A DNA stretch of 54,394 bases from a virus. Its lineage: Duplodnaviria > Heunggongvirae > Uroviricota > Caudoviricetes. Position numbers and translations under genes: made by a program. Location: IMG/VR virus record IMGVR_UViG_2541047753_000004, one strand, 5' to 3'. Below, piece by piece: positions 21,337 through 38,895 of this stretch. The stretch's first letter is position 1. Each line of letters opens with the position of its first letter. The notes below the pieces were generated by a model. That model was not told the DNA's origin. It worked only from the letters and a program-made list of their open reading frames with translations, and did no database searches.

Positions 21337-21347
21337 AATTACCTCAG

Positions 21348-23081: not shown

Positions 23082-23094
23082 GATTCGATGATTT

Positions 23095-24222: not shown

Positions 24223-24447
24223 TTATTCTTTGCTGATTGCTTTCTGAATGGCATCGGCTAATGGTTCAATTAAGCCAATAGCTGCTTTTAATTCCTGTTC
24301 AAATTTTGCACTTGTAGCCTGACCACCTGCAGAAGAAAGTGAGGCCTTAACTAATTCAAGGGCAGCTTGAACAGCTATAACCCTCTGTTTTTGAGCTTGA
24401 GTTACAGGCTGAGCACCTATTCCTGAAGGGAAATAATTCTCTAACAT
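24223..24447 (-). CDS. Small hypothetical protein
   Basis: 74-aa helical ORF between lysis cassette and HNH gene. Confidence 0.3.
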   Translation of the reverse strand: MLENYFPSGIGAQPVTQAQKQRVIAVQAALELVKASLSSAGGQATSAKFEQELKAAIGLIEPLADAIQKAISKE

Positions 24448-24714
24448 TACAACCTCCGTATTAAAAAGTGAGGTTACACATTACCCTTAAGATTACTCTT
24501 AGTGAAGAGGTATCTCATAATTATCACCCTTACCAATAACGCTTGATGAAATTTGTAATGGACTGGCTCTTATTTCAACGCAACCACTTACCGCGCGCCA
24601 GATGCTTAACCTCAAACATTAGCAATGAGATGTTTAATCTGAATCCACTCCAGAAGTAATCACCACTCTGTCTACAGGGCCTGATGTGAAGGATGATGAG
24701 TAAAATTATCGCTA

Positions 24715-25176
24715 TCATCGAAGGCATTGCGTCCTGATGTACTCCTGCAGGTAGTTAACCTGTGCGGTTATCCTGTCGATTCCACTTCGGAGACGGTAAT
24801 AATTGAGTTCAGCATCTGCTGTAAGTCCTGGGCTTTCTCCATCGCCCATGCCGCTGGCTCTGGTCGTTGATTTTGCACAGGTGGCGGCGACTTGCAGGCG
24901 CTTACGCCCAGAAGAAACATCAGCACGGAGACTTTCGATAGTCGCGTTAGCATCAGCAAGCTCCTTTGTGTATCTGGCGTCAAGTTCTGCTACGTCACGT
25001 TGACGCTTCTGCATATCAGAGATAGTCGCCATAGCCGAATCTAATGCCATAGCATTCTCATCACGCTGCTTTTTGTATTCGATGGCTTTGCTGTGGTAAT
25101 AATTTGCTGAACAGATAAAAGAACCAATGACAGTAACGAAGAATGCAGCGATAACCAGCTTATAGCTCAACTTCAT
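24715..25176 (-). CDS. Rz: i-spanin Rz
   Basis: 153 aa, N-terminal TM then coiled coil; ...YKKQRDENA...DMQKRQRDVAELDARYTKELADA closely parallels lambda Rz. Confidence 0.85.
   Translation of the reverse strand: MKLSYKLVIAAFFVTVIGSFICSANYYHSKAIEYKKQRDENAMALDSAMATISDMQKRQRDVAELDARYTKELADANATIESLRADVSSGRKRLQVAATCAKSTTRASGMGDGESPGLTADAELNYYRLRSGIDRITAQVNYLQEYIRTQCLR
24768..24983 (-). CDS. Rz1: o-spanin Rz1 (embedded in Rz, +1 frame)
   Basis: Lipobox LLGVSAC followed by Pro-rich segment; fully embedded in Rz. Confidence 0.7.
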   Translation of the reverse strand: MTPDTQRSLLMLTRLSKVSVLMFLLGVSACKSPPPVQNQRPEPAAWAMEKAQDLQQMLNSIITVSEVESTG

Positions 25177-25636
25177 TTACCACCCCGCCAGCCTCTTTGA
25201 ATCGGGCAATCAGGTCACCGATTTTATGTTCATACTGACCGTAACCAGCGCCCGGCAGTGAAGCCCAGATATTGCTGCAACGATCGATAGCCTGACGAAT
25301 ATCGCCGCGATCAATCATCGGTAAAGCGCCACGCTCTTTAATCTGCTGCAATGCCACAGCATCCTGGCTTTTTGGAGAGAAGTCTTTCAGCCCAAGCTGC
25401 TTGCGGTAAGCATCCCACCAGCGTGAAAGAAGTTGATAACGGCCTGCAGCTGTTGATTTGAGTTTGGGGTTTAGCGTGACAAGTTTGCGAGGGTGATCGG
25501 AGTAATCAGTGAATAGTTCACCACCGACAATAATATCATAACCGTGGTTACGTGTCGGTTGTCGCCCGTTATCCGTTCCTTCTGACCATGCCACCATATC
25601 GAGGAAAGCTTTACGCTGAGGATTAAGATTTTGCAT
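25160..25636 (-). CDS. R: Endolysin, lambda R-like lytic transglycosylase
   Basis: 158 aa; QRKAFLDMVAWSEGTDNGRQPTRNHGYDIIVGGELFTDYSDHPRK nearly identical to lambda R as I recall it. Confidence 0.9.
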   Translation of the reverse strand: MQNLNPQRKAFLDMVAWSEGTDNGRQPTRNHGYDIIVGGELFTDYSDHPRKLVTLNPKLKSTAAGRYQLLSRWWDAYRKQLGLKDFSPKSQDAVALQQIKERGALPMIDRGDIRQAIDRCSNIWASLPGAGYGQYEHKIGDLIARFKEAGGVVNEVEL

Positions 25637-26027
25637 TTTTCACCCCTGTCAGTCGTTCCCAGAAGTACGTCAGTGCAACCGAACCCATCGCACCACTAAT
25701 CCCCGCTGTCGCGAGAATCATGTAAATACTGAATCCACTTTCGATGCTGATCAGGCCACCAATAACACCGGTGAATCCTGATACCACTATCTGAGCCAGA
25801 GCATTTATCCAACTCCACGTTGCTTTACTCTGCTTCACATCTATCAGGTAGCGGACCAGACCGCCCCAACCTGCGATGATCAGCAAAACGAGCCAGAACG
25901 CTCCAGCAAGATTCTCTTTTTCGTGCATATGAATAGCCGCAGTTTCGCCTCCGACAGAAAATCGGAGCGTGAAATGATATGTTGATTTATTATTAATTCG
26001 AAAATTACATTCTAATTCATCAGGCAT
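25623..26027 (-). CDS. Holin
   Basis: Immediately upstream of endolysin; three hydrophobic helices; true start may be the internal MHEKEN at 25928. Confidence 0.7.
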   Translation of the reverse strand: MPDELECNFRINNKSTYHFTLRFSVGGETAAIHMHEKENLAGAFWLVLLIIAGWGGLVRYLIDVKQSKATWSWINALAQIVVSGFTGVIGGLISIESGFSIYMILATAGISGAMGSVALTYFWERLTGVKNAKS

Positions 26028-26044
26028 TGATGATTTTATAATAA

Positions 26045-26069
26045 TAAAGGCCGTTCGTTACGGCCTTTA
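26045..26069 (-). terminator. Intrinsic terminator-like hairpin between cargo gene and holin
   Basis: AAAGGCCG ttcgtta CGGCCTTT with T-rich flanks. Confidence 0.5.
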
Positions 26070-26079
26070 TTATTGATAT

Positions 26080-26415
26080 TTATTTTACATCCCAAGGTAG
26101 TTCCTCAAGAGAGAAGACTAATTCATTATCAATAATTTCGTATTCTGCATAACCTTCAACCTCTCCTGAGAAGTTATTGTCAACGCATCCTTCATAATAG
26201 CTATATGGTGCTATAAAGTGAAACCCATATTCATCTATCTCTGTGATTTCAAAATTGTAGTAATCGTAAGAATATCGAATATCATCATCAGAAATAGAAC
26301 TAAGTACATAGTTATTAAATTTATCGGAATGCTTAACGATAAGCTCTGACAACGCGTCAAGATTCTCTGGAGAGATATTTCCTAACGGTAATCTGTACTC
26401 AACGGCATTAATCAT
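26080..26415 (-). CDS. Hypothetical acidic protein (late-operon cargo gene)
   Basis: 111 aa, AT-rich codon usage unlike flanking phage genes, strong SD AAAGGAGG; between Q-associated terminator and holin. Confidence 0.5.
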   Translation of the reverse strand: MINAVEYRLPLGNISPENLDALSELIVKHSDKFNNYVLSSISDDDIRYSYDYYNFEITEIDEYGFHFIAPYSYYEGCVDNNFSGEVEGYAEYEIIDNELVFSLEELPWDVK

Positions 26416-26472
26416 ACAACCTCCTTTTTAACTGATATGGGGTTATATAATGTGTTTCAGTACAAGTAAATA

Positions 26473-26495
26473 AAAACCCGCTCAACAGCGGGTTC
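26473..26495 (-). terminator. tR'-like intrinsic terminator downstream of Q
   Basis: Minus strand AACCCGCTGTTGAGCGGGTTTTTATTT. Confidence 0.55.
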
Positions 26496-26540
26496 GTGAA
26501 AATTATCAACGGCAGACATACAAAGCCCATCGTTGAGAAA

Positions 26541-26569
26541 ATCTTATCCATATTTTTTGAAAAATGCAA
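26541..26569 (-). promoter_or_regulatory. Candidate late promoter pR' (-35 TTGCAT, 17-nt spacer, -10 TAAGAT)
   Basis: Sigma-70-like hexamers read on the minus strand between Q stop and terminator. Confidence 0.35.
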
Positions 26570-26600
26570 GCTTCATGTCGCCATCTTCGGCGAAAATCAC

Positions 26601-27359
26601 TTATCTCGTCACCTTTCTCAATTGTGTTTCAGCATATGCTTCTTCCTGCCAGCACTTTGTTACCAGTTTATCAATGACGTCTGCATATCCTTTGTACCAC
26701 TGATAATCAGTCAGGTCTGGAACCAGCTTCTGGACATGACGTCGTGCCAGTGTAGTTGGTAAACGGCTAAACCGGTTTCCATTGCAACGCCCACAAATCT
26801 TATAAACAGGCGTGCCATGAAGCCGGGTCCTTTTTTCATCCAGGACAATACCTTTACCCTTACACCCTCTGCACGCTGTGCTGACTTCTCCCTTACCATG
26901 ACAATGCTGGCATAGTTCCTTCACCCACTCTTCCTTGATAACAGATTCCCCGCTTCTGGAGTGTTTCACCACCTCGCGCAATACATTATGAAATCCAGTA
27001 CCAGCACAATGCTCACAGCGAGCCTTACTTGCCGCAGACCTGGAATAATCAGCAAAGGCAAAATTCACAAGGTAAGGAATGATCTGTAGCCGGGTTTCTT
27101 CACTCAATTTATTCAATGTCGGGTTATCCAGTGCCATCGCGTAATTGAGCAGACCTTCAATCGCAAACTGAGGATCCTGAACACCAACTTTTGCCAGGAA
27201 TAAGGCAAACCCAAGCGGTGCTTTCGACTGCACCATCCCCTGCGCAGCCATCACATCCGTAATCGTTAAACCACCAGAGCCTGTCGCCGGTGCGTCATCG
27301 CTCAGTTTTGGAGATTTCGGGGAGTAATATTTCGGTAAGGCTTCAAGGTTCATGCTCAT
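26601..27359 (-). CDS. Q: Antitermination protein Q (phage 82 Q-like family)
   Basis: 252 aa with repeated CxxCxGxG zinc-finger motifs; located before late promoter/terminator and lysis genes. Confidence 0.7.
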   Translation of the reverse strand: MSMNLEALPKYYSPKSPKLSDDAPATGSGGLTITDVMAAQGMVQSKAPLGFALFLAKVGVQDPQFAIEGLLNYAMALDNPTLNKLSEETRLQIIPYLVNFAFADYSRSAASKARCEHCAGTGFHNVLREVVKHSRSGESVIKEEWVKELCQHCHGKGEVSTACRGCKGKGIVLDEKRTRLHGTPVYKICGRCNGNRFSRLPTTLARRHVQKLVPDLTDYQWYKGYADVIDKLVTKCWQEEAYAETQLRKVTR

Positions 27360-27366
27360 TCTCCAC

Positions 27367-28362
27367 TTACGCCAGTACGCCTATTGCCAGCGCACGATCG
27401 ATAAAACGAAATATCAGCTCCAGCTGGGAACCATACTTCTCTTCAAATGCCACGGTATCCGCATGCAGCTCGTCGTGATGCTTTCTGCACAAAGGCAACA
27501 CAAAGAGGTCATGCGCTTTTGTACCCATTCCCCCCTGACCGTGGCCTATCAGGTGGTGGGGATCATCAGCAGCCTTTCCACAACATGCACACGGCTGTGT
27601 CTTAACCCAGCGTGTGTACTTTTCATTAACCCAGCGGCGACGTTTTGGGCGTAACATAAAAGACTCCGGCGACTCCGGATCCACTTTCAGCGCCAGCACC
27701 TTTTTCGCCTTATCCTGGATGATGCTGGTGGCAGGAACCGAAGGCACAAGGTCACTTTCCCGGGTGACAGACGGCACAACAGGCTTCGGTAATCTCAGTG
27801 CCTTACGGGCTGCACTTTCCGGTAAGGCATCCGCCAGGTCATTACGAATCAGCCACCAGCACAGTTCCGGCATTGTCACAACGTGACTATCATCAAAACC
27901 GAGATCCCGACGCACAACAGACAACACCCAGCGGGCACAGTTATCCGTTGCCATTGATTCCAGCCGTTCCGTGAACTGATCGCGCAGCTGGTTATCGCAG
28001 TGCCAGCACAGACGGATTGCGCCCGGCGCGTGTCGCATTGTTGTCATGTTCTCGCTGTGCCAGTCGGAATGAGGCCACTGGCAGCCTTTTTCACGAAGTA
28101 ACCAGCTTTCAAGACATTCCACGCCACCAGCACGACGGATCACTGCCTCATTGCGGAACACGGCCCGAACGTCAGGATCATCCGCCAGCGGTTGTGATGC
28201 CGCCGGAACAGCACCACTGGCGAAAGATGAATAACGTTCCGGCTCAGGCTCCAGCAGGACACGCCCCTGCATAAACAGGGGCATCAGCTCTGAACCTGGT
28301 CTGAACAATACGATCCCCATACGCGGGGCAATTTCAGGGGTCAGTAGTGCTCTCACGGTCAC
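27367..28362 (-). CDS. DUF968-family prophage protein (YdfU-like)
   Basis: 331 aa with C-terminal Cys/His cluster CACCG...HHLIGHG...CRKHHDELH; position in nin-like region. Confidence 0.6.
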   Translation of the reverse strand: MTVRALLTPEIAPRMGIVLFRPGSELMPLFMQGRVLLEPEPERYSSFASGAVPAASQPLADDPDVRAVFRNEAVIRRAGGVECLESWLLREKGCQWPHSDWHSENMTTMRHAPGAIRLCWHCDNQLRDQFTERLESMATDNCARWVLSVVRRDLGFDDSHVVTMPELCWWLIRNDLADALPESAARKALRLPKPVVPSVTRESDLVPSVPATSIIQDKAKKVLALKVDPESPESFMLRPKRRRWVNEKYTRWVKTQPCACCGKAADDPHHLIGHGQGGMGTKAHDLFVLPLCRKHHDELHADTVAFEEKYGSQLELIFRFIDRALAIGVLA

Positions 28363-28363
28363 C

Positions 28364-29173
28364 TCAATGAACGGTATCGAGCAGCTTTAACAGCTCAGGG
28401 AATCGGGATTCGAAGAAATGCGGCTGCGTCTCACGCGGATTTGCGGGACTGGTGATGTTCTTGCCGAACATGCAGCCTTTCGCCGTCAGCGACCAGAATT
28501 TTTTGATGTTGTTAATCGCGGTACGGCTGTATCGTTCGCGCTGCTCGACGATCCCCAGTTTCACCATCTGGTGATATGCCTGATTAGCCGTCAGGCGGAT
28601 ACCATACTGCTTCAGCAGTGCACTCAGTGACAGCGTGGGGCGGCTTGAGCCATCAGGCGCGTCAGCAGGAGCATCAATGGCATAGCGCGGTGCCAGATTC
28701 GGTAAGCCAACAGCCTCCTGGAGTTTCTGACAGGCACCAAGCACTGAAGAGTTAGACAGGTTTAACTCCCGGCGCATAAAGTCCAGCAGGATCACGCCAG
28801 CCTGCATCTTGTCAGCAGCCTGCCCGGATAATTTTTCCGGTGCGCTGGTTACCATATCGAAAGTACGGATCACCTTCAGATGGAATGACGGGCTGATCCA
28901 CATTGCATAGGCATACACCAGTTCTTTGCAGACATACGTCCCCTGGTTATTTCCGCCATTAATGACGCTAACTGGTTGATTTTGTTCCAGAGGCGGAATT
29001 CCACCCTCGGTGAAAAGTTGTTCAATCAATTCACAGGTTTGCTTATTGGAGAGCCAGTATTTCGGGCGGTTTTTTTGTTCTCCCCCGGCTGCCCTGTGCA
29101 GATCGTTCAGGCTGTAACGCCCATAAGCATCACGACGAACTTCAATACCATCAATAACCATCAGATTATTCAT
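28364..29173 (-). CDS. KilA-N domain protein / antirepressor-like
   Basis: 269 aa; N-terminal MNNLMVIDGIEVRRDAYGRYSLNDLHRAAGG typical of KilA-N. Confidence 0.65.
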   Translation of the reverse strand: MNNLMVIDGIEVRRDAYGRYSLNDLHRAAGGEQKNRPKYWLSNKQTCELIEQLFTEGGIPPLEQNQPVSVINGGNNQGTYVCKELVYAYAMWISPSFHLKVIRTFDMVTSAPEKLSGQAADKMQAGVILLDFMRRELNLSNSSVLGACQKLQEAVGLPNLAPRYAIDAPADAPDGSSRPTLSLSALLKQYGIRLTANQAYHQMVKLGIVEQRERYSRTAINNIKKFWSLTAKGCMFGKNITSPANPRETQPHFFESRFPELLKLLDTVH

Positions 29174-29192
29174 ACTTCGTTTCTCCTCTTAA

Positions 29193-29582
29193 TCAGGCGG
29201 CTGCACCCGCCGGTTTCTCATACTTACTGATAGTGATCTCGACCTTCCCTTTCGGGATAACCGGTCCCCACTCCACCAGCATTCTTTTCACCTGTCTGTC
29301 GTCTTCCCACACACCCGCGTGGGTCAGGGCGTCAAACAGCGCCTTGTTATAGTTGTCCAGATCGCGGATCCGGTTATCCGGAGGAAACAACACGATCTCC
29401 ACTGAAGCAGGTGCCGACGTTGGTTTTGGCAGACGACGTAACTGCTCAACTATTGCTGCGCACGCCGCGCTCTGAAATTTTCGCCCCGCCGCGCTTATCA
29501 GGCTCTTACCAGCAAATGCCCCTTTGTTGGGGTGTCGCCAGTAGGTGTTCACGCTGGGCGGGAAAGGCAGGATCAGCTTCAT
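29193..29582 (-). CDS. rusA: Holliday junction resolvase RusA
   Basis: 129 aa; PPSVNTYW...RDLDNYNKALFDALTHAGVWEDDRQV matches RusA catalytic region. Confidence 0.85.
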   Translation of the reverse strand: MKLILPFPPSVNTYWRHPNKGAFAGKSLISAAGRKFQSAACAAIVEQLRRLPKPTSAPASVEIVLFPPDNRIRDLDNYNKALFDALTHAGVWEDDRQVKRMLVEWGPVIPKGKVEITISKYEKPAGAAA

Positions 29583-29905
29583 ACTTTCAGGCCCCTCTCA
29601 TGTAACCAGTGGGCTGCACGCAGCCTGGCGTTTTCCTCACCGACAAGCAGTGAGCGGATAATCCCGACCGCCTCGCTGTCGTCGTCCTTCACCGCGGTAT
29701 GAAGCGTGATCCCCCGGGCCACACCACGCTTTATCGTGATGACGCCTTTTTTCTCCAGTGCGCGAAGATGCTCCACCGCTGCATTCACCGAACGGTATCC
29801 CAGCATGGTTGCCACCTCCTGATTGGTTGGCGGGAAGCCACGCTCTTTCTGATAAGAAATCAGCATATCCAGCACCTGCTGCTGGCATTGAGTTAACGTC
29901 GTCAT
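29579..29905 (-). CDS. LexA N-terminal DNA-binding-domain protein (no peptidase domain)
   Basis: LTQCQQQVLDMLISYQKERGFPPTNQEVATMLGYRSVNAAVEHLRALEKKGVI parallels the LexA winged HTH; only 108 aa. Confidence 0.6.
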   Translation of the reverse strand: MTTLTQCQQQVLDMLISYQKERGFPPTNQEVATMLGYRSVNAAVEHLRALEKKGVITIKRGVARGITLHTAVKDDDSEAVGIIRSLLVGEENARLRAAHWLHERGLKV

Positions 29906-30555
29906 GCCGCCATCTCCCTGACCAGCTTTTCCGCCTGCAGGCGAACCTGCGCCAGAAACGCCTCACCACATGCCTCAAGTTCATCGCGCCCGATGTAGCT
30001 GATTGCCGGTCCCTTCCAGGTCTTGTCGAAAACAGCAATAGCACCAGCGAAGAAAGCGCCTGTCGGCACCTGCTTCTCATCCTTCGGGATAAACCAGGCA
30101 GGCAGTTCAAAACCAATACGCCCGCGAATAAAAGCAATATGATCTGCATCTTCCGGCCACCACACTTCGCTGGTGGCAGCTTTGATCAGGAAAACATAGC
30201 GCCCGCCCTTATCACGCATGGCACTGGCATGCTTCATGATGTAACGCATGCCGGTGATGTATTGCCCCTCATGCTGACTGGCGCGGCTGTATGGGGGATT
30301 TCCAAAGGCAGCACCTTTAAGCTCCGCAAGGCGTTCTGACCAGTCATGCGCCAGCGCGTTGTCTTCCGCCGTGTAATACGCAGCACATTTGGCGTTATCA
30401 CCGTCAGTGAACAGATCCAGAACAAACGGACCAAACAGGGTGTTAATTCCCCAGAAAATGTTGTCCGGCGTGCGCCACTGATCGCCCACTTCCTTCAGTT
30501 CATGGGCTGGTTTGTTCCGCAGTTCCACCAGCTCCTGGCAATATTTATTACTCAT
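29902..30555 (-). CDS. Phage N6-adenine DNA methyltransferase (orphan)
   Basis: FGNPPYS (NPPY) motif; phage orphan MTase architecture. Confidence 0.8.
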   Translation of the reverse strand: MSNKYCQELVELRNKPAHELKEVGDQWRTPDNIFWGINTLFGPFVLDLFTDGDNAKCAAYYTAEDNALAHDWSERLAELKGAAFGNPPYSRASQHEGQYITGMRYIMKHASAMRDKGGRYVFLIKAATSEVWWPEDADHIAFIRGRIGFELPAWFIPKDEKQVPTGAFFAGAIAVFDKTWKGPAISYIGRDELEACGEAFLAQVRLQAEKLVREMAA

Positions 30556-31049
30556 TAAGCCCCCACGTAATTCCCTGACAGATACCACTCTTCACCTGAT
30601 GCAGCCCGCTTACTGCTTTTCCGTAAACACCGTTCACGACGCGCCAGAAAATTGTTTCGTTCTGGCTGGGAGTAGCTTTCACGGAATGCCGCCATCCACA
30701 CCGTTGCAGCACGACGGTATAAGCCCCTGGACTCCAGTTCTTCCGCCTGGCGGGTCAGGCACAAAATCACCCGGGGATCGTTAGTGCCGACATAGAAATT
30801 GCGCACAGGTCTGGTTTCACGAACTGGTTGTGGTTCCGGCTCCTGCGCTCTCTCAGTCAGGCGTGGGAAATGTCTGCGTGTATCTCCTTCACAACGGTGA
30901 GCCACACGCCCACTCTGACGTAACTTGCTTGCTGACTGCAGAACGCGCTGCCGTGAGTAACCTGCAAAAGCATCCGCAATGTCTCCGGAAGTACAGCCCG
31001 GATGGGCTTCAATGAATTTCTGAACGTCATTCAAAAGACTCATGATCAC
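30555..31049 (-). CDS. Hypothetical regulator, PerC-like C-terminal region
   Basis: ESRGLYRRAATVWMAAF resembles the PerC family signature as I recall it. Confidence 0.4.
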   Translation of the reverse strand: MIMSLLNDVQKFIEAHPGCTSGDIADAFAGYSRQRVLQSASKLRQSGRVAHRCEGDTRRHFPRLTERAQEPEPQPVRETRPVRNFYVGTNDPRVILCLTRQAEELESRGLYRRAATVWMAAFRESYSQPERNNFLARRERCLRKSSKRAASGEEWYLSGNYVGA

Positions 31050-31987
31050 CCCCTGAATCCTGCCGGGATCTGGCTGTAGTCCACGTTGTCGTAACTGGCT
31101 TTGAAGTACGGGTCTTCGCGTTTTTCGGTGTACGTGCTGACGGACGGCGATAAGCGCAGGGAAAGCTCATCCCATTTTTCCCGCAACTTCGACGGGCTGA
31201 GCACGTTACGGCACCAGAACGGATCGCGGCTGACGCGGCTGTACATCTCGCAGATTTGTTTGTGAGTACGACCATCCTGCACACACATCAGGCGAATTTC
31301 GTTTGCCCATGCTGTCCAGTTAGGTTCTTTGGGACGAACCACCTCGCCGTCACATTCGGCGGCCTGCTCGTACAGGGCGATGATTTTTTTCCAGAGCCAC
31401 TGTGCGCAGGTCAAATCATCCTGCGTCCCCCACTGGCGCTTTTTAGGGCTGAATACAACCGCATCAGGATGGCGAGTTAAAAAATCCTGTTCATCCGTCT
31501 GCGTGTCCGGTTGCGAAGCGTCCGGACGAGAAGGTTTTTTATCTGACGGATCATGTTTTGATTTTACTGACGGATCCCCGCCAGATTCTGACGGGTGAAA
31601 ACCCGCTTTTTTGCCAGATTTCGACGCATCAAATTTTGACGGGTCAGATTTTGATGCGTCAGATTTTGACGGGTCAGAATCTGACAGTTGAGAAAATGCC
31701 GCTGCCTGAAGCTTCGCAACGTTAAGCTGATAAACATTCGACGCATTGCGGTTACCCTGGCGACGCGCCTTACGCGTTAACCAGCCTTCTGCTTCCAGCC
31801 GTGCGATAGCCGTTCTGACGGTACTCATCCCCGCGCCAATCTGACGGGCAATAGTTTCAATTGATGGCCAGCACACACCTTCGTCATTACTGAAATCAGC
31901 CAGGCGGGCCATAATTGCCACGCTGGATAATTTCATGCCTGACGCAGCGCAACCATCCCATACATAGCCGGTTAATTTAGTGCTCAT
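31046..31987 (-). CDS. Replication initiation protein (O-like, N-terminal wHTH)
   Basis: 313 aa; N-terminal HTH, internal repeated peptide SDSDPSKSDASKSDPSKFDASKS encoded by DNA iterons; downstream of cro/cII-like genes. Confidence 0.7.
   Translation of the reverse strand: MSTKLTGYVWDGCAASGMKLSSVAIMARLADFSNDEGVCWPSIETIARQIGAGMSTVRTAIARLEAEGWLTRKARRQGNRNASNVYQLNVAKLQAAAFSQLSDSDPSKSDASKSDPSKFDASKSGKKAGFHPSESGGDPSVKSKHDPSDKKPSRPDASQPDTQTDEQDFLTRHPDAVVFSPKKRQWGTQDDLTCAQWLWKKIIALYEQAAECDGEVVRPKEPNWTAWANEIRLMCVQDGRTHKQICEMYSRVSRDPFWCRNVLSPSKLREKWDELSLRLSPSVSTYTEKREDPYFKASYDNVDYSQIPAGFRG
31539..31690. repeat. Putative replication origin iterons inside the O-like gene
   Basis: Tandem ~15-bp units (ATTTTGACGGGTCAG and variants) repeated about 6-8 times. 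Confidence 0.6.
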
Positions 31988-31996
31988 GACCGACCT

Positions 31997-32335
31997 CTAT
32001 TTCCCTGAATTTACGACGAAACTGTTCGAGCGGGCTAAAGCACTCATGCTCATAGCCTTCACGGAGGTAGATAACCCGTTGTGTTTCCGGCTCCCAACGA
32101 ATGACTCTGACGGGCACTCCGTAGTGATCTTTGAACCAGCGGTTAACTTGTCGCAAAGGACTGTCTCCTTCTGCCGGTTGAAATCCCCCACAGCCCACTC
32201 AGCAAAGCTGTGGGTTACAATTTCCCTGTCACCTGGTACATTTACTGCATAGCAATACTCCACCTTCGCTTTTCCACCCGGTACAGGAAGCGCAATCAGT
32301 TGCGAGCGACGGTAGTGTGTTGTTAAACTGTTCAT
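31997..32335 (-). CDS. Hypothetical protein
   Basis: 112 aa; ATGA start/stop overlap with upstream YdaT-like gene suggests translational coupling. Confidence 0.4.
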
Positions 32336-32889
32336 GCGTTAGTTTCTCCACAACCAGAAGCAATCGACGCCACGACGCCCGGAGCTGCACACTCGCGGGC
32401 GTCATTACTTTCTGAAACGCAAAAAATTTTGTAGACAAGTGCTGCATGCTCCTGCAGCTTCGAAATTGAGAGGTACAGCTCGTCGTTAATTGCTGTCTTC
32501 TCATGCGGTTCCACTACACCGTCTTCGATTGCCGAACGAATCTGTTTTGAATAACTGCCGATCTGTTCAATGACTTCCAGTAAACGCTGGTTAATATCGG
32601 CATTGTCCACATCCTCGACGTCAGGAAGAGACACAAAGACGCCATTTGCAGACTGCGCCACAGCGTCAGCAATGAAGTGAGTGCCACCAGCACGTTGTAA
32701 AATCATTGCCCATCCCAGCGGGAAAATCTGATCGCCATCGGCACGAAGGCGGTTAAATAATGCGTTCTCTGTTACATCCAGCCACTCAGCAGCTTCAGCG
32801 TAACCCCCCGGCAACGCCGCGATAGTTTTTCTGACAGCTTTCACGTACCACTCAGGCTGTTTTTCCACTTTCCAGTGATGATTACCCAC
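32332..32889 (-). CDS. CII-like / YdaT-family regulatory protein
   Basis: 185 aa immediately downstream of cro-like gene. Confidence 0.5.
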
Positions 32890-33142
32890 GGCTTACCTCC
32901 TGTTCCTGTGGTTTAAACCCATTCTGGTTTTGGCTAGATTGAAAACGTGCCGGATAAAGAATCTGCATTTCGCTGATTTCACCCTTAAAAAAATTGGCCA
33001 GACGTTCTGCAAGATCGATAGATGGAATTTGTTCCAGTCTTTCAATACGACTCAGCGTCGCTGGATTGACCTGAACGCCAGCAGCAACATGCTGCAAAGT
33101 AAATCCGTGCGCCTTACGCACATTCCGTAATGGTGATTGCAT
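32882..33142 (-). CDS. cro: Cro-like HTH repressor (XRE family)
   Basis: 86 aa; HTH GFTLQHVAAGVQVNPATLSRIE; divergent from the CI-like repressor. Confidence 0.8.
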   Translation of the reverse strand: MQSPLRNVRKAHGFTLQHVAAGVQVNPATLSRIERLEQIPSIDLAERLANFFKGEISEMQILYPARFQSSQNQNGFKPQEQEVSRG

Positions 33143-33239
33143 ATGACCTCCACATATTGCGTGATAAGCATATTATTTCACGCAAATATTTTGCGCAAGT
33201 TGATTTGCTTAACGCGCAATAAAGAAATGTAATAAACGC
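33143..33239. promoter_or_regulatory. Immunity operator/promoter region
   Basis: Repeated palindromic half-sites TTGCGTGA / TCACGCAA / TTGCGCAA / CGCGCAA between the divergent cro and repressor starts. Confidence 0.55.
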
Positions 33240-33932
33240 ATGAACATAGGAAACCGAGTCAGACAACTTCGCCAGGCGAAGAACATGAAAATCGCCGATC
33301 TCGCTGAAGCAATAGGAGTGGATGCGGCGAATATCTCACGCCTGGAAACAGGTAAGCAGAAACAATTCACTGAACAAGCCCTGAGTAATATTGCCAGGAG
33401 CTTAGGTGTTGATATTGCTGATCTCTTTACCTCAGACTTCAAAAGTAATACTGTATGTAAAAACAGTATTAGTGAGGATGTTGCGCAGGTGAAGGATGTA
33501 TTCCGTATTGAAATGCTGGATGTCAGTGCCAGTGCGGGAAATGGCCTTATCCAGGGCGGTGATGTCATTGATGTGATTCATGCCATTGAATACAGAACTG
33601 ATAATGCTGTATCGATGTTTGGCGGACGGCCAGCCAATCACATTAAAGTTATCAACGTTCGTGGGGACAGTATGTGTCCAACCATTGAGCCAGGAGATCT
33701 CATCTTCGTTGATGTCAGTATCAATCAGTTTGATGGAGATGGTATCTATGTATTTGGTTTTGATGATAAAATTTATGTCAAACGACTGCAAATGATACCT
33801 GACAAACTACTGGTGATTTCTGATAACCAGATTTACCGTGAATGGGGAATTACCAGCGAAAATGAACACCGGTTTATGGTCTTTGGAAAGGTCTTAATCA
33901 GCCAGTCACAAACCCTTAAGCGACACAATTAA
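33240..33932 (+). CDS. cI: CI-like repressor (HTH + S24 LexA-like peptidase)
   Basis: N-terminal HTH IADLAEAIGVDAANISRLE; C-terminal VRGDSMCPTIEPGD (catalytic Ser) and KRL (Lys); no SD upstream, possibly leaderless. Confidence 0.9.
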   Translation: MNIGNRVRQLRQAKNMKIADLAEAIGVDAANISRLETGKQKQFTEQALSNIARSLGVDIADLFTSDFKSNTVCKNSISEDVAQVKDVFRIEMLDVSASAGNGLIQGGDVIDVIHAIEYRTDNAVSMFGGRPANHIKVINVRGDSMCPTIEPGDLIFVDVSINQFDGDGIYVFGFDDKIYVKRLQMIPDKLLVISDNQIYREWGITSENEHRFMVFGKVLISQSQTLKRHN

Positions 33933-34634
33933 CCCTTACCTCCTCATCAATTAGCCACCCAAAGGTGGCTTTTCATTACCCTTTAAATTGCATATCTCGC
34001 AACAAAAACACTTGCATAATGCGCAACTTCATTTTATCTTTCTTTCCAGACAAACAAACAAGGTACTAACAAAATTTGGTTGTAACACGGCGTATGGCAC
34101 ATGCGTCGTTAGCGGTCTGGGGACGTTAAAGGGGACAATCCACTCCTTGCTCGGGCAAACAAACCAGGTAGCCGGAATGTGCAAGTCAATGATGATGCTG
34201 ATAAGACGCCTAACCAGCGTGGCGATTCGGTTTGACGCCTGGGAAGAGACCAGGGTGCAACGATGAGGGCATTTATGGAGCCGCGACAAAGTGTGGTGCT
34301 GTAACTGGCTAAGTGCTCTCAGCGTTGTGGTAATCCGCGAAATGGCGCGGCGGTAAGTATGGCGGGGTTACTCTTTCCCCGTTGAGGACACCGGATTGTC
34401 AGGTTGACCATACGCCTGAGTGACAAGCCCACCACAACAGCCACTGCTTTGGCGGTACCAGTTTGTACACTTGCTTCCGGCTGGTACCGCTCTTTTTACA
34501 AAACAGAGAAGAGCATCACCGGACGACGGGCTCATAACCCAATCCATCCGGGCGGCTGCCACCGCAGGTGTTCTTCTCTGTTTTGTGGAGAAACCAACCG
34601 ACCTTGCAGGGTCGATATGATGAGGAGCAGCAAA

Positions 34635-34997
34635 ATGGCTAGCGAACGCAGTACTGATGTGCAGGCATTTATCGGGGAGCTGGACGGCGGCGTATTTGAA
34701 ACCAAAATCGGCGCAGTTCTCAGTGAAGTCGCTTCCGGTGTGATGAACACAAAAACCAAAGGTAAGGTCTCACTCAACCTGGAAATCGAACCATTTGATG
34801 AGAACCGTGTGAAAATCAAACACAAACTCTCATATGTTCGCCCGACTAACCGCGGGAAAATTTCCGAAGAAGACACCACCGAAACGCCGATGTATGTCAA
34901 TCGCGGTGGTCGCCTGACTATTCTGCAGGAAGACCAGGGACAATTACTGACTCTTGCCGGTGAACCTGACGGAAAACTACGCGCAGCAGGTCATTAA
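34635..34997 (+). CDS. Hypothetical early protein (YfdP-like by size and context)
   Basis: 120 aa from ATG with GAGGAG 7 nt upstream; ORF track extends further upstream without SD. Confidence 0.4.
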   Translation: MASERSTDVQAFIGELDGGVFETKIGAVLSEVASGVMNTKTKGKVSLNLEIEPFDENRVKIKHKLSYVRPTNRGKISEEDTTETPMYVNRGGRLTILQEDQGQLLTLAGEPDGKLRAAGH

Positions 34998-35062
34998 TAT
35001 CGTTCTTAATTAACTGATTATTTATCTCATCACTGAATATCTTTATATAGTGAGGACTTATT

Positions 35063-35887
35063 ATGTCTCAGAACTTAGACGCAACCGCAATTAATCAAAT
35101 CCATGCCCTTATTTCTGCTCAGGGTGTTAATGAAATTATCAGTAAGATTGGTGCCGATGCTGTGGCATTGCCTGAGAATTTCCGCATTCATGATCTGGAA
35201 AAATTTAATTTAAATCGCTTCCGTTTCCGTGGCGCGCTTTCCACTGCCAGCATCGATGATTTTACCCGTTATTCTAAAGATCTTGCGGATGAAGGCACCC
35301 GCTGCTTTATCGATGCCGATAATATGCGTGCCGTCAGTGTGCTTAACCTGGGTACTATTGATGAGCCTGGTCACGCAGATAACACCGCCACTCTCAAACT
35401 GAAAAAGACAGCACCGTTCTCTGCTCTGTTGTCTGTTAACGGCGAGCGTAACTCCCAGAAGTCACTGGCAGAATGGATTGAAGACTGGGCCGACTACCTT
35501 GTGGGCTTTGATGCTAATGGTGATGCCATTCAGGCAACAAAAGCGGCTGCGGCAGTCCGTAAAATCACGATTGAAGCAAACCAGACCGCTGATTTTGAAG
35601 ACAATGACTTCAGCGGCAAACGCTCCCTGATGGAGTCTGTCGAAGCGAAGACCAAAGATATTATGCCAGTGGCATTTGAATTTAAATGCGTTCCGTTTGA
35701 AGGCCTGAAAGAACGTCCGTTTAAATTACGCCTCAGCATTATCACTGGCGATCGTCCTGTACTGGTTCTGCGCATTATTCAGCTGGAAGCAGTGCAGGAA
35801 GAAATGGCTAACGAATTTCGTGATCTGCTTGTTGAGAAATTCAAGGACAGCAAAGTAGAAACCTTTATTGGTACTTTTACCGCCTGA
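35063..35887 (+). CDS. YfdQ-like DUF2303-family protein
   Basis: 274 aa, same size and context as CPS-53 YfdQ. Confidence 0.5.
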
Positions 35888-36014
35888 TTTCATTACTGCA
35901 AATGCCCCTGCGGGGGCATTTATGGAAACGTAATTGACTCAATAATCGCCGGATGGTGAGGGCTTTCTTTTACCAGAATTCAGCGCGGTGCAGCGCATAT
36001 ACGTGGAGAACAAA

Positions 36015-36539
36015 ATGTCATTTATTAAAACTTTTTCCGGGAAGCATTTTTATTATGACAGGATAAATAAAGACGACATCGTTATTAACGATATCGCGGT
36101 TTCTCTTTCAAATATCTGTCGCTTTGCAGGACATCTTTCACATTTCTACAGCGTCGCCCAACATGCGGTGCTTTGCAGCCAACTGGTACCGCAGGAATTT
36201 GCTTTTGAAGCGTTAATGCATGATGCAACAGAAGCGTATTGCCAGGACATCCCGGCGCCACTGAAACGCCTTCTTCCTGACTATAAACGGATGGAAGAAA
36301 AAATAGACGCCGTAATCCGTGAGAAATACGGGTTACCCCCGGTTATGAGTACGCCCGTGAAATATGCCGATCTCATCATGCTGGCAACCGAACGCCGCGA
36401 TCTCGGGCTTGATGATGGCTCTTTCTGGCCCGTACTGGAAGGTATCCCGGCAACAGAGATGTTCAAAGTTATTCCACTGTCGCCAGGCCATACCTATGGG
36501 ATGTTTATGGAACGCTTTAAAGAGTTAACTGAGTCGTAA
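36015..36539 (+). CDS. HD-domain phosphohydrolase (YfdR-like)
   Basis: HD motif context HAVLCSQLVPQEF...ALMHDATEAY; start at MSFIKTF. Confidence 0.65.
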   Translation: MSFIKTFSGKHFYYDRINKDDIVINDIAVSLSNICRFAGHLSHFYSVAQHAVLCSQLVPQEFAFEALMHDATEAYCQDIPAPLKRLLPDYKRMEEKIDAVIREKYGLPPVMSTPVKYADLIMLATERRDLGLDDGSFWPVLEGIPATEMFKVIPLSPGHTYGMFMERFKELTES

Positions 36540-36647
36540 AAATCAGCACGTACGAATTCAAACTCTGCCATAAAAGAACATATAAGTAATTTATTAACAT
36601 ATAGATATAGGTTATATTACAAATTGAAAAATTATTGGAGAGCAACA

Positions 36648-37514
36648 ATGAATCAAAATCCATTCTCATTCTATGACTTTCTTGGATATTTAATACCAGG
36701 TGGTTTTTTTATCCTATTAATGTATTTCTGTGGTTTGACATTCGATCTAGATATTGTTATTGACTTAAGTGAATTACTCAGAGGTCAAAGTCAAATCTTT
36801 GGCATTTTGAACTACGCTTCAATAGTTATTATATCTTATATAGCTGGACATTTTATTTCTATCACGTCAGCATTTTTTATCGAAAAATACATGAATAAAG
36901 AATTAGGATATCCTTCCAAATATCTATTTAAAAAATTGATAGATACCTCAGAAAGCATTTGTAGCCCATCATGCGATGAGAGAAGCGCTGATAAAAAAAC
37001 AAAAATAAAGAATCGCATAATCAAATGCGTATTATGTCCAATAATACTATGGGATTTTATAACACAAAAACTATGTTATTCTCAATCTCTACCATTTCAT
37101 TTAGCTAATACAACATGGTTAATGATCAAAGAAGGTTATGAGAAAAAGTTCATAACAAATCGCCAATTATTACAAGATAAAAACGGACTTGATGATGATC
37201 TCTTCAGATTGGCATATCATTATGTTTATGAGTTTTCAAAACAACATCAAACAAAAATTCAAAACTATGTTGCATTATATGGTTTTTGCAGAAACATATG
37301 TTTAATCTTTATAATTTCATTTTGGGTATCAGTTCCAACCTTTATTTATCGATTATGTACTCATAGTGATTATCTTTATAGTTTACTTTCAATAATGCTT
37401 AGCTTTTTCTTCGTCTATGTTTTCTATGTTGGTTTTGTTAAATTTTATAGAAGATATACTTTAGAAGTATTAATGGCATTTGCTGTACTTCAAAGTAACG
37501 ACACTATTCGTTAA
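36648..37514 (+). CDS. AT-rich multi-pass membrane protein (cargo gene, unknown function)
   Basis: 288 aa from ATG with GGAGAG SD; hydrophobic helices at both ends; strongly AT-rich relative to neighbours. Confidence 0.55.
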   Translation: MNQNPFSFYDFLGYLIPGGFFILLMYFCGLTFDLDIVIDLSELLRGQSQIFGILNYASIVIISYIAGHFISITSAFFIEKYMNKELGYPSKYLFKKLIDTSESICSPSCDERSADKKTKIKNRIIKCVLCPIILWDFITQKLCYSQSLPFHLANTTWLMIKEGYEKKFITNRQLLQDKNGLDDDLFRLAYHYVYEFSKQHQTKIQNYVALYGFCRNICLIFIISFWVSVPTFIYRLCTHSDYLYSLLSIMLSFFFVYVFYVGFVKFYRRYTLEVLMAFAVLQSNDTIR

Positions 37515-37555
37515 TAATGTTGCTCCCGTGTGCAGACGGGATAATGGAGAAACGT

Positions 37556-37762
37556 ATGCTGAACCTCGATTGTGTTCCTATCTCAACTTATTGCAAAGAA
37601 ACTGGCGAAACTCCTGAAGCAATAAACAAACGTGTACAGCGCGGTGTTTGGCGTGAAGGTGTTCAGGTTTTAAAGGTTGAAGGCGTTAAGGAGAGGTGGA
37701 TTGATCTTAGTGAGGTTGCAAAATGGGCCAGACAAAACTGCTCAAACTACCGCGCGGCGTAA
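37556..37762 (+). CDS. xis: Excisionase (Xis-like)
   Basis: Small basic protein immediately upstream of and overlapping int; start uncertain (37517, 37544 or 37556). Confidence 0.55.
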   Translation: MLNLDCVPISTYCKETGETPEAINKRVQRGVWREGVQVLKVEGVKERWIDLSEVAKWARQNCSNYRAA

Positions 37763-38895
37763 CAATCAGGAAACACCGCCAGGGAGAAACGATCAATATA
37801 ACTTTCACCTACAAAGGAGTTAGATGTCGTGAGCCGCTTTCCAATCTGGAAGTAACACCAAAGAACATTAAATACGCCGAGCGTACACTCGGCGAAATCC
37901 ATAATAAGATCGAAAGGGGAACATTCATTTATGCAGAATATTTTCCCCGTTCTGCTCGTTTGAAAATTTTTGGTAATGCTGCTGCAGGCAAAACGGTAAA
38001 GGTGTACCTGGACGAATATCTTGAAATCTGCGAAACAAGAAAACTTTCACCCTCTACGATTGGTGGCTATAAAAAATGCCGTAGTGCGTTAGCCTCACTT
38101 CACATTTGCCCTGCAAGTGAATTAACACCAGCAACCCTGAAAGCGTGGATTCAAAGCCAGAAAACAACCTTAAAAACCATTCGCAACCAGTTATCTTTCC
38201 TACGGTCAGCACTTGATGAAGCCGTGACCGATGGGGTACTTCAAATTAACCCCGTATCGTTAGTAACAGCTTCGCGCTACCAAAGTGATAAGTCAGAAGC
38301 AGAAAGCAGCTATGTGGTTGATCCGCTATCACCAGCAGAAGTTGATGCATTACTAGCAGCAGCCGGAAACAAACAATGGGAAAATCTGTTCCGGTTCGCC
38401 ATACATACAGGCCTGCGTAGTTCTGAATTATGTGCCCTACGATGGCATGATATCGACTTTGTTGGAAAAACAGCCCATGTTCAGAGCGCAAGTGTTGTCG
38501 GAGTTATCAAAGGAACAAAGACAAAAGCCGGTACCCGTAAAGTTGAACTGACTGAAGAAGCAATGTTGGCGTTGATAAACCAGAAGCCATTTACATTCAT
38601 GAAGGATGCTACTGTCTTTGAAGATCCAAAGACCAATAAACCCTGGGCAAGTGCTGATGCAATTAGGAAAAAAGCATGGGTGCCAACATTGCGAAAAGCA
38701 GGTATTCGTTACAGAAACCCATATCAAACCAGGCATACATTCGCCACCAGCCATATCAGCCGGGGAGCAAACCTGTTTTGGCTTGCGGCTCAAATGGGCC
38801 ATAAAGGGCCTGAAATGTTATTCAGGCACTATGGACAATACTTGAAAGAGTATGATGGGAGGGCAAGTATCAAGGATAAAAAGGCTTTATTTTAA
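37723..38895 (+). CDS. int: Tyrosine integrase (lambda Int family)
   Basis: 390 aa; C-terminal catalytic region R...HTFATSHISRGANLFWLAAQMGHKGPEMLFRHYGQY with conserved R, H-x-x-R and Tyr. Confidence 0.9.
   Translation: MGQTKLLKLPRGVTIRKHRQGETINITFTYKGVRCREPLSNLEVTPKNIKYAERTLGEIHNKIERGTFIYAEYFPRSARLKIFGNAAAGKTVKVYLDEYLEICETRKLSPSTIGGYKKCRSALASLHICPASELTPATLKAWIQSQKTTLKTIRNQLSFLRSALDEAVTDGVLQINPVSLVTASRYQSDKSEAESSYVVDPLSPAEVDALLAAAGNKQWENLFRFAIHTGLRSSELCALRWHDIDFVGKTAHVQSASVVGVIKGTKTKAGTRKVELTEEAMLALINQKPFTFMKDATVFEDPKTNKPWASADAIRKKAWVPTLRKAGIRYRNPYQTRHTFATSHISRGANLFWLAAQMGHKGPEMLFRHYGQYLKEYDGRASIKDKKALF

What the first reader, a model, noticed from the sequence alone, without database searches (positions are those of the whole stretch)
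31539..31690. Iteron array embedded in the O-like replication gene
About 6-8 tandem ~15-bp repeats lie inside the replication initiator ORF and encode a repetitive SDxSK peptide linker, as lambda ori lies within O. No separate helicase-loader (P/DnaC-like) gene is evident nearby.
Basis: seen in the sequence. Interest (0 to 1): 0.4.

Follow-up and report, generated by a model that had tools for sequence, protein, structure and literature searches.

The report
Replication-origin repeats inside a phage initiator gene
The short repeats are real and conserved as DNA rather than as protein, so they are very probably the binding sites of a prophage replication origin lying inside its own initiator gene, an arrangement long known from phage lambda.

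Summary
The minus-strand gene 31046-31987 (313 aa) is 100% identical to the Shigella phage SfII "O protein". Its middle carries six copies of a 13-bp palindrome, GTCARAATCTGAC. Five lie at an exact 15-bp period and one lies 33 bp further on. Two degenerate half-sites follow, in a mildly AT-rich block with two GATC sites.

The repeats encode an SDxSK-type linker that is predicted to be disordered. The constraint, however, is on the DNA:
- Across 79 distinct relatives the codons are almost fixed (TCT/GAC/TCA/AAA).
- Third codon positions are as conserved as first and second positions only here (1.34 vs 0.72 bits, p=1e-12).
- In phiP27-type relatives the same motif is read in another frame.
- The core motif is about 170-fold enriched in the linker of 73 loci.

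The repeat block travels with the N-terminal winged-helix domain, whichever of four C-terminal domains is attached. The C-terminal domain in this window is homologous to that of lambda O.

No P, DnaC or helicase gene was found in the early region of this prophage, in the annotated SfII genome, or next to 65 of 73 related genes.

Verdict: a lambda-style origin within the initiator gene, with its own iteron type, in an initiator-only module. It is a new member of a known kind. Origin activity is inferred, not shown.

The parts
31046..31987 (-). O-like replication initiator gene (313 aa)
   Evidence: ORF. PHROG 391 'replication initiation O-like', E=1e-135. 100% identical to the SfII O protein.
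31694..31987 (-). Codons 1-98: N-terminal winged helix-turn-helix DNA-binding domain. The predicted recognition helix (residues 54-66) contains STVRTA.
   Evidence: Pfam HTH_36, E=4e-11, plus GntR/MarR/DnaD_N/RP-C. AlphaFold2 helices and beta-hairpin wing. Foldseek matches to MarR-type DNA-bound dimers.
31493..31693 (-). Codons 99-165: linker predicted to be disordered. It encodes the SDxSK repeats and contains the whole cis element.
   Evidence: pLDDT below 50 for residues 102-164. Third-codon-position information is 1.34 bits in codons 101-157 against 0.72 bits elsewhere.
31613..31685 (.). Five tandem iterons at a 15-bp period (31673-85, 31658-70, 31643-55, 31628-40, 31613-25). Each is a 13-bp imperfect palindrome GTCARAATCTGAC plus 2 variable bases.
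   Evidence: Codon fixation TCT/GAC/TCA/AAA with a variable middle codon across 79 relatives.
31580..31592 (.). Sixth, isolated iteron (GTCAGAATCTGGC on the coding strand), 33 bp from the array. This is the most conserved copy in the family.
   Evidence: Near-invariant columns TTTGACCCGTCAGAATCTGG in 76 sequences.
31593..31612 (.). A6/T4 spacer between the array and the sixth iteron. It contains a small hairpin followed by a T run on the + strand (31592-31605).
   Evidence: The hairpin is not conserved in the family alignment.
31529..31576 (.). Candidate unwinding element. It holds two about 24-bp direct repeats, each made of GATC, an iteron half-site (CCGTCAG) and an A-rich run. GATC sites are at 31549 and 31573. 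Half-sites are at 31535-47 and 31559-71.
   Evidence: Least stable 40-bp stretch between 30500 and 32400 (31529-31568, GC 0.30, z=+1.55). Nearly invariant in 76 relatives, third codon positions included. GATC count is 2-4 per linker in 73 of 77 distinct sequences.
31148..31492 (-). Codons 166-280: helical C-terminal domain homologous to the C-terminal (P-binding) part of lambda O and of phi80 gp15.
   Evidence: tblastn 39% identity, E=1e-17 to lambda O; 35% to phi80 gene 15. pLDDT about 90. Alignment of the domain start, FL(T/S)xHP(D/E)A.
30555..31049 (-). Gene immediately downstream: YfdN-like protein with a PerC domain. It is not a helicase loader and is present next to only 20 of 73 relatives.
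   Evidence: Pfam PerC, E=2e-8. PHROG 1324. Neighbour census.
29902..30588 (-). Phage Dam-type N6-adenine methyltransferase. This is the most constant neighbour of the initiator gene in the family.
   Evidence: Pfam Dam, E=1e-45. The Dam cluster holds 44 ORFs: 23 first and 20 second after the initiator gene.

Best explanation
The segment 31529-31685 is the replication origin of an SfII/SfV-like lambdoid prophage. It lies inside the linker-coding part of the prophage's own initiator gene, as ori-lambda lies inside O.

Proposed mechanism; every step is inferred:
1. The initiator's N-terminal winged-helix domain binds, probably as dimers, to six dyad-symmetric 13-bp iterons. Five are packed at a 15-bp period.
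2. The resulting nucleoprotein complex destabilises the neighbouring, mildly AT-rich block that contains the GATC sites (31529-31576).
3. The lambda-O-like C-terminal domain brings in the host DnaB helicase. It would do so directly or through host DnaC, because the phage has no recognisable P, DnaC or helicase gene.

Shown here: the repeats, their DNA-level conservation, their linkage to the N-terminal domain, the domain homologies, and the absence of a recognisable loader gene.

Inferred: binding, unwinding, origin activity and the route of helicase loading.
For: **Position and homology**
- The array sits between an HTH_36 winged-helix domain and a C-terminal domain 39% identical to that of lambda O.
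- This is the place of ori in lambda and phi80 and of the repeats in P22 and phage L (PMC8022706).

**Constraint on DNA, not on protein**
- In the S-D-x-S-K unit of 79 distinct sequences, the first Ser codon is TCT in 83% of cases (9% elsewhere in these genes). The second Ser codon is TCA in 85% (16% elsewhere). Among Lys codons, AAA is 99% (62% elsewhere). The x codon varies freely.
- Information by codon position is 1.49/1.69/0.58 bits in the N-terminal domain. It is 1.40/1.37/1.31 bits in the conserved block.
- Third-position information is 1.34 bits in codons 101-157 against 0.72 bits elsewhere, Mann-Whitney p=1e-12. Columns with identical amino acids keep the same codon in 62-90% of cases in the linker, against 37-49% in the rest of the gene.
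- In phiP27 and L074, a copy of GTTTT(G/C)ACCC(T/G)TCAGAATCTG is translated in a different frame.

**Generality**
- In 73 chromosomal loci of Enterobacterales, the core TCARAWTCTGR occurs 3-10 times per 210-bp linker.
- Density is 25.8 per kb there against 0.15 per kb in the flanks. Of 323 spacings, 237 are exactly 15 bp.

**Specificity cassette**
- The same N-terminal domain plus repeat block is joined to four unrelated C-terminal domains.
- Relatives with changed recognition-helix residues (STVYGA, STIRGA, STVITL) have changed outer iteron bases, TCCAGA instead of GTCAGA.
- A 52-56% identical clade has a different 15-bp iteron, TTGACCCGTCAA.

**Unwinding element**
- The least stable 40 bp between 30500 and 32400 (31529-31568, which covers the O gene and its flanks) abuts the promoter-distal end of the iterons.
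Against: - There is no experimental evidence of binding or origin activity for this family in the literature I could reach.
- The AT-rich block is weak: 30% GC, and about the 88th percentile of 40-bp stability in the window. The AT-rich region of lambda is stronger from my recollection; I did not measure it on L086.
- A 15-bp centre-to-centre spacing is unusually tight for winged-helix dimers and is out of helical phase. Plasmid iterons are about 22 bp apart, from general knowledge.
- There is no DnaA box in the gene, and no loader gene to complete a lambda-like pathway.
Confidence: 0.8

Rival explanations
1. The array is a binding array for the same initiator, or for another phage protein, but it serves control rather than initiation. 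Possible roles are autoregulation or roadblock of early-right transcription, copy-number control by handcuffing, or exclusion of related phages. The true origin would lie elsewhere.
For: - The DNA-level conservation and the covariation with the helix show only that a protein-binding array is selected, not what it does.
- The AT-rich element is weak.
- Cloned lambda iterons alone give an inhibition phenotype against related phages (PMC3349717, listed).
Against: - No second cluster of the motif exists anywhere in the window. Only 4 scattered sites with at most 2 mismatches were found.
- In 73 loci the motif density outside the linker is 0.15 per kb, so there is no separate origin array for this protein to bind.
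- The position matches characterised lambdoid origins.
Confidence: 0.1
2. The repeats are only a coding feature. They would be a low-complexity, slippage-prone Ser/Asp/Lys linker with no function as DNA.
For: - All copy spacings are multiples of 3, and copy number varies by whole 15-bp units.
- The linker is predicted to be disordered.
Against: - Position-specific codon fixation: the first Ser is TCT, the second Ser is TCA, and Lys is AAA in 99% of cases. This holds in 79 distinct sequences whose other synonymous sites are close to saturated.
- The motif is read in another frame in phiP27 and L074.
- The conserved unit is a DNA palindrome, not a peptide period.
Confidence: 0.03
3. The DNA-level conservation reflects some other overlapping signal. 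Candidates are a structured mRNA or antisense RNA, an overlapping reading frame, or a recombination hot spot that keeps the segment young.
For: - The RNA of 31520-31700 folds better than shuffled versions, z=-4.8.
- Open frames run through the repeats on both strands: 31558-31725 (+) and 31564-31746 (-).
- The junction to the alternative C-terminal domains lies just downstream, around codons 160-163.
Against: - The fold signal is what any array of palindromes gives. Copy number varies from 3 to 10, so no fixed structure is kept.
- No Rfam family matches. The only hit is far below threshold: mir-5880, 30.7 bits against a gathering score of 97.
- No promoter-like site was found.
- Recent exchange would conserve all positions alike. 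Instead the 2-nt spacer and the x codon vary while the palindrome is fixed.
Confidence: 0.05

Closest known systems
ori-lambda within gene O of phage lambda (and the parallel origin in phi80 gene 15)
   Same: - The origin repeats lie in the linker-coding middle of the initiator gene.
- The repeats have dyad symmetry.
- An AT-richer stretch lies on the promoter-distal side.
- The C-terminal domain is homologous: 39% identity to lambda O and 35% to phi80 gp15.
- The N-terminal domain and the repeats form one exchangeable specificity unit.
   Different: - The N-terminal domain is HTH_36. It gave no Pfam match to the lambda O N-terminal family.
- There are six 13-bp sites at a 15-bp period. Lambda has four repeats of about 20 bp (PMC8022706).
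- The AT-rich block is weaker and carries two conserved GATC sites.
- No P gene follows.
Repeats inside gene 18 of the P22-like phages P22 and L
   Same: The repeats lie within the coding region of the origin-binding protein. They are predicted from sequence to be the origin, and the motif differs from phage to phage. Phage L has six imprecise 11-bp repeats (PMC8022706).
   Different: Those phages carry their own DnaB-type helicase, gene 12 (PMC8022706). The module here encodes neither a helicase nor a loader.
Iteron-controlled plasmid replicons (pSC101 RepA, R6K pi, RK2 TrfA; from general knowledge)
   Same: A winged-helix initiator binds a repeat array next to an unwinding element. It must use the host helicase without a dedicated phage loader.
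   Different: - There is no Rep_3-type domain.
- There is no DnaA box nearby.
- The sites are palindromic and 15 bp apart, not about 22-bp direct repeats in helical phase.
- The array lies inside the initiator's own coding sequence.
HTH_36-type O-like proteins of prophages, paired with lambda P (Brezellec et al. 2017, PMC5509034)
   Same: The N-terminal domain family is the same (PF13730). The role assumed for the protein is lambda O-like.
   Different: Those proteins carry the Phg_2220_C C-terminal domain and sit next to a P gene. Here the C-terminal domain is of the lambda O type and no P gene is present. That paper does not describe iterons for this family.

Membership tests
Lambda-type origin embedded in the initiator gene | The initiator has an N-terminal DNA-binding domain and a C-terminal recruitment domain, separated by a flexible linker. 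| tested here: met
   Pfam HTH_36 at residues 23-70. AlphaFold2 gives folded regions 1-98 and 186-280, with pLDDT below 50 for 102-164. The C-terminal domain is homologous to that of lambda O.
Lambda-type origin embedded in the initiator gene | An array of at least 4 dyad-symmetric repeats lies in the linker-coding segment and is conserved as DNA. | tested here: met
   Six sites with at most 2 mismatches. Codon fixation and third-position conservation.
Lambda-type origin embedded in the initiator gene | An AT-rich unwinding element lies next to the repeats on the promoter-distal side. | tested here: inconclusive
   31529-31568 is the least stable 40 bp between 30500 and 32400, but only at 30% GC, z=+1.55.
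Lambda-type origin embedded in the initiator gene | A P-type helicase-loader gene lies directly downstream of the initiator gene. | tested here: not met
   The downstream genes are PerC/YfdN-like, Dam, LexA-DBD-like and RusA. None is annotated in the whole SfII genome or found in this prophage's early region. It is absent from the next 3 ORFs in 65 of 73 relatives.
Lambda-type origin embedded in the initiator gene | The initiator binds the repeats, and the segment supports initiator-dependent replication. | not testable with these tools
   This needs footprinting and a plasmid replication assay.
Lambda O protein family (N-terminal domain, Pfam Phage_rep_O) | The N-terminal origin-binding domain matches the lambda O N-terminal family. 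| tested here: not met
   The Pfam scan gives HTH_36/GntR/MarR-type matches only. tblastn similarity to lambda O is confined to residues 166-277.
Iteron plasmid replicons (Rep_3 type) | A Rep with tandem winged-helix domains, direct repeats of about 17-22 bp in helical phase, and DnaA boxes nearby. | tested here: not met
   No Rep_3 match. The period is 15 bp and the sites are palindromic. No DnaA box with at most 1 mismatch lies within 31046-31987.
Purely coding low-complexity tandem repeat | Synonymous sites are free to vary and the repeat is defined by the peptide. | tested here: not met
   plus the out-of-frame copy in phiP27 and L074.

The most novel reading that the evidence does not exclude
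This would be a P-independent version of lambda-type initiation. It would be an initiator-only module, widespread in prophages of Enterobacterales. A lambda-O-like C-terminal domain would recruit host DnaB, or DnaB-DnaC, directly to tightly packed 15-bp-period dyad iterons. The unwinding block, with its two conserved GATC sites, would be tuned by the Dam methyltransferase gene that almost always accompanies the initiator gene.
Probability: 0.35. Interest if true: 0.55.

Novelty: new member of a known kind. Interest (0 to 1): 0.33.

Why it matters
**Practical value**
- It gives a concrete, testable origin of about 160 bp for the SfII/SfV/e14-type prophages. These are common in Shigella, E. coli, Klebsiella and many other Enterobacterales.
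- It also gives a defined iteron consensus, with TCAGAWTCTGA as the core.
- Their initiator is currently annotated only as "helix-turn-helix domain-containing protein" or, misleadingly, "primosomal protein".

**Open question it exposes**
- How does a lambda-O-type C-terminal domain load the host helicase when no P protein is encoded?

**Method**
- The comparison of codon positions used here is a general way to tell a DNA element from a peptide repeat inside a gene.

The principle itself, an origin inside the initiator gene, is textbook.

Tried and rejected
- **Literature.** Five searches found no description of this origin. The SfV genome paper (PMID 11889106, PMC134923) is not held. The review "Bacteriophage replication modules" appeared only as a citation in other papers. 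I therefore cannot exclude that the repeats were noted there.
- **DnaA boxes.** None lies within the gene.
- **GATC.** It is not enriched in the window overall. Only the two origin sites are notable, through their conservation.
- **Promoter scan.** Nothing was found. The terminator-like hairpin at 31592-31605 (+) is not conserved in relatives.
- **Rfam.** The only hit is a sub-threshold microRNA family, an artefact of the palindromes.
- **Sequence search of solved structures.** Only weak MarR matches to the N-terminal domain.
- **Fold search of the full model.** Only winged-helix regulators were found.
- **Fold search of the C-terminal domain alone.** Nothing scored below E=1, so the fold gives no clue to the helicase-loading route.
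- **Plasmid collection.** I looked for a natural minimal replicon built on this module. The hits are mostly prophage-bearing large records or circularised phage genomes. The one small record (16 kb, L088) belongs to a different iteron clade and has a DnaC-like gene.
- **Single-linkage clustering of C-terminal regions.** It merged all types through the shared tail. I replaced it with comparison to reference domains.

Full report
**1. What is in the sequence**

The finding lies in a minus-strand ORF, 31046-31987, of 313 aa.
- Tandem Repeats Finder reports 31615-31678 as 4.3 copies of a 15-bp unit, or 2.1 copies of a 30-bp unit.
- The repeat finder extends the family to spacings 33, 15, 15, 15, 15. 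It also shows that the units are inverted repeats of each other.
- The clearest description is a 13-bp palindrome, GTCARAATCTGAC, followed by two variable bases.
- Six sites with at most 2 mismatches lie at 31580-92, 31613-25, 31628-40, 31643-55, 31658-70 and 31673-85. Only four other such sites exist in the whole 54-kb window.
- Two further degenerate copies, each beginning GATCCGTCAG on the coding strand, lie at 31535-47 and 31559-71.
- All spacings are multiples of three. The encoded peptide is SDSDPSKSDASKSDPSKFDASKS...HPSESGGDPSVKSKHDPSD.

Only five copies are strictly tandem.

**2. The gene and its setting**

The protein is 100% identical to the "O protein" of Shigella phage SfII. The surrounding DNA is 98% identical to several Escherichia phages and to SfII and SfIV.

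The window holds an SfII-like prophage in reverse orientation:
- The structural genes at 6417-23705 are 98% identical to SfII, and the early-right region at 27371-34096 is 95.5% identical.
- The integrase is at 37723-38895.

The protein has three parts:
- Residues 23-70 match Pfam HTH_36, with weaker GntR, MarR, DnaD_N and RP-C matches. AlphaFold2 gives a winged helix for residues 1-98.
- Residues 102-164 have pLDDT below 50 and are predicted to be disordered.
- Residues 186-280 form a confident helical domain. Residues 166-277 are 39% identical to the C-terminal part of lambda O (E=1e-17) and 35% identical to phi80 gene 15.

The repeats thus occupy the linker between a DNA-binding domain and a lambda-O-type C-terminal domain. 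This is where ori lies in lambda and phi80.

**3. DNA element or peptide repeat?**

This was the key test. I collected 80 chromosomal loci from Enterobacterales whose N-terminal domain is 52-100% identical, plus four phage records.
- **Codon fixation.** In the repeat unit S-D-x-S-K of 79 distinct sequences the codons are almost fixed. The first Ser is TCT in 83% of cases, against 9% of Ser codons elsewhere in these genes. The second Ser is TCA in 85%, against 16% elsewhere. Among Lys codons, AAA is 99%, against 62% elsewhere. Asp is mostly GAC. The x codon varies freely. No protein-level constraint distinguishes TCT from TCA by position.
- **Codon positions.** Information per codon position is 1.49/1.69/0.58 bits in the N-terminal domain. 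It is 1.40/1.37/1.31 bits in the conserved part of the linker.
- **Profile along the gene.** In 13 full-length homologues, third-position information is 1.34 bits in codons 101-157 (window 31517-31687) and 0.72 bits elsewhere, Mann-Whitney p=1e-12. Columns with the same amino acid keep the same codon in 62-90% of cases in the linker, against 37-49% in the rest of the gene.
- **Reading frame.** In phiP27 and locus L074, one copy of GTTTT(G/C)ACCC(T/G)TCAGAATCTG is read in a different frame, as TLQNL or TRQNL instead of DPSES.

The selected object is the DNA sequence.

**4. Generality and linkage to the DNA-binding domain**

- In 73 loci the core TCARAWTCTGR, allowing one substitution, occurs 3-10 times (median 5) in the 210-bp linker.
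- Its density there is 25.8 per kb, against 0.15 per kb in the other roughly 8 kb of each locus. Of 323 spacings, 237 are exactly 15 bp.
- The N-terminal domain and the repeat block stay together while the C-terminal domain is swapped among four unrelated types. These are the lambda-O type, the Phg_2220_C type, a phiP27 type and a fourth type. The junction lies at about codons 160-163, just past the element.
- The few relatives with altered recognition-helix residues (STVYGA, STIRGA, STVITL instead of ST[VI]RT[ATS]) have altered outer iteron bases, TCCAGA or TTCAGA instead of GTCAGA. This involves only four sequences, so it is suggestive only.
- A clade 52-56% identical, common in E. coli prophages, keeps the 15-bp period but uses a different palindrome, TTGACCCGTCAA.

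This is the pattern expected for an initiator and its cognate sites evolving together.

**5. Architecture of the putative origin**

Read in the direction of the gene, the parts are:
1. Five iterons at 15 bp (31685 down to 31613).
2. An A6/T4 spacer.
3. A sixth, highly conserved iteron (31592-31580).
4. A nearly invariant block made of two about 24-bp repeats. Each consists of GATC, a half-site and an A-rich run (31576-31529).

The last block contains the least stable 40 bp between 30500 and 32400 (31529-31568, which covers the O gene and its flanks). It has 30% GC, z=+1.55 against the whole window. That is only moderately AT-rich, so this feature is met weakly. The two GATC sites are conserved: 2-4 GATC per linker in 73 of 77 distinct sequences, against 2.55 per kb in the rest of these genes. 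No DnaA box lies in the gene.

**6. No helicase loader**

- Downstream of the initiator come a PerC/YfdN-like protein, a Dam methyltransferase, a LexA-DBD-like protein and RusA.
- The rest of the prophage's early region holds Q, DUF968/HNH, a KilA-N regulator, CII-like, Cro-like and CI proteins, a phosphatase, three proteins of unknown function and the integrase.
- In 65 of 73 related loci none of the next three ORFs is P-like or DnaC-like. Six loci have a DnaC/IstB-like ATPase and two have lambda P.
- The most constant neighbour is a DNA adenine methyltransferase of the Dam or MT-A70 type.

How the helicase is loaded is therefore open. The simplest inference is direct recruitment of host DnaB or DnaB-DnaC by the C-terminal domain. 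The C-terminal domain model has no recognisable relative among solved structures.

**7. Comparison with what is known**

- Lambdoid origins lie inside the initiator gene and differ in their repeats between phages. This is established for lambda and is read from sequence for P22 and L (PMC8022706).
- HTH_36-type O-like proteins next to lambda P have been noted in prophages (PMC5509034).
- I found no description of this particular origin or iteron. The SfV genome paper and the main review on phage replication modules could not be read.
- I therefore class the finding as a new member of a known kind. Two less ordinary traits are the tight 15-bp packing of palindromic sites and the initiator-only gene module.

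**8. Rivals**

- A control or exclusion array with the true origin elsewhere cannot be excluded by sequence. However, no second cluster of sites exists.
- A purely coding repeat is contradicted by section 3.
- An RNA structure, an overlapping frame or a young recombinant segment explains the data poorly.

**9. Verdict**

Origin activity remains an inference, which I hold at about 0.8. It could be settled by a simple plasmid replication assay and a footprint.

Noticed in passing
window 31549-31552 and 31573-31576; Dam gene 29902-30588: Two GATC sites sit in the conserved block beside the iterons. Asp is GAT at these two positions but mostly GAC in the tandem units. A Dam or MT-A70 methyltransferase gene is the most constant neighbour of the initiator gene in the family. 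This suggests methylation control of the origin, as at oriC and P1 oriR (recalled from general knowledge).
   Followed up: partly
L086 (lambda O codons 158-170) and L087 (phi80 gene 15 codons 160-170) compared with window 31580-31592: Lambda and phi80 share TCGTC(A/C)GAGAATTCTG(G/A)CGAATCCTCTGAC just after their AT-rich region. This resembles the iteron here (GTCAGAATCTGAC), but with a wider centre. It could be common ancestry or chance.
   Followed up: no
L059 and L082 (E. coli chromosomes), match 4001-4237: The initiator gene is 99% identical over residues 1-79. The reading frame then continues for 456 aa into unrelated sequence, so the iterons are lost. This resembles the defective e14 prophage gene ymfN, but I did not identify the downstream sequence.
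   Followed up: no
window 31997-32335 (-): The gene just upstream of the initiator is annotated 'putative protein YmfM' in closely related phage records and matches PHROG 1170. A preprint reports that e14 ymfM causes SOS-inducible filamentation (bioRxiv 10.1101/2020.11.19.390815, listed).
   Followed up: no
L088 (NZ_CP148542.1, 15,977-bp circular 'plasmid'): The record consists only of lambdoid early and lysis genes: a CI-like HTH protein gene, cro, an O-like gene at 1675-2634, a DnaC-like ATPase, RusA, Q, holin and lysozyme. It could be a natural lambda-dv-like replicon or an assembly artefact. Its O-like gene has a frameshift with a stop codon inside the conserved GATC block.
   Followed up: partly
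L014 (Vagococcus), L036 (Chryseobacterium), L041 (Martelella), L073 (Pseudomonas lundensis): Genome records of non-enterobacterial species carry this module: the N-terminal match is 82-88% identical in L014, L036 and L041, and 67% identical in L073. Contamination or mislabelled assemblies seem more likely than real host range.
   Followed up: no
window 31592-31605 (+): A terminator-like hairpin, CGGGTGAAAACCCG followed by CTTTTTT, lies antisense to the initiator gene between iterons. The stem is not conserved in relatives.
   Followed up: partly
window 31558-31725 (+) and 31564-31746 (-): Open frames of 55 and 60 aa run through the repeats in other frames (QILTG-type repeats). They are probably a by-product of the palindromic array.
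   Followed up: no
window 24057-27371 and 34096-38895: These parts of the prophage mostly lack a long match to SfII; only two short matches (25087-25622 and 35904-36534, about 90-95% identical) fall inside them. They include the Q gene and its surroundings, three early-left genes of unknown function (PHROGs 204, 210, 12528) and the integrase. The prophage is a mosaic relative of SfII rather than SfII itself.
   Followed up: partly
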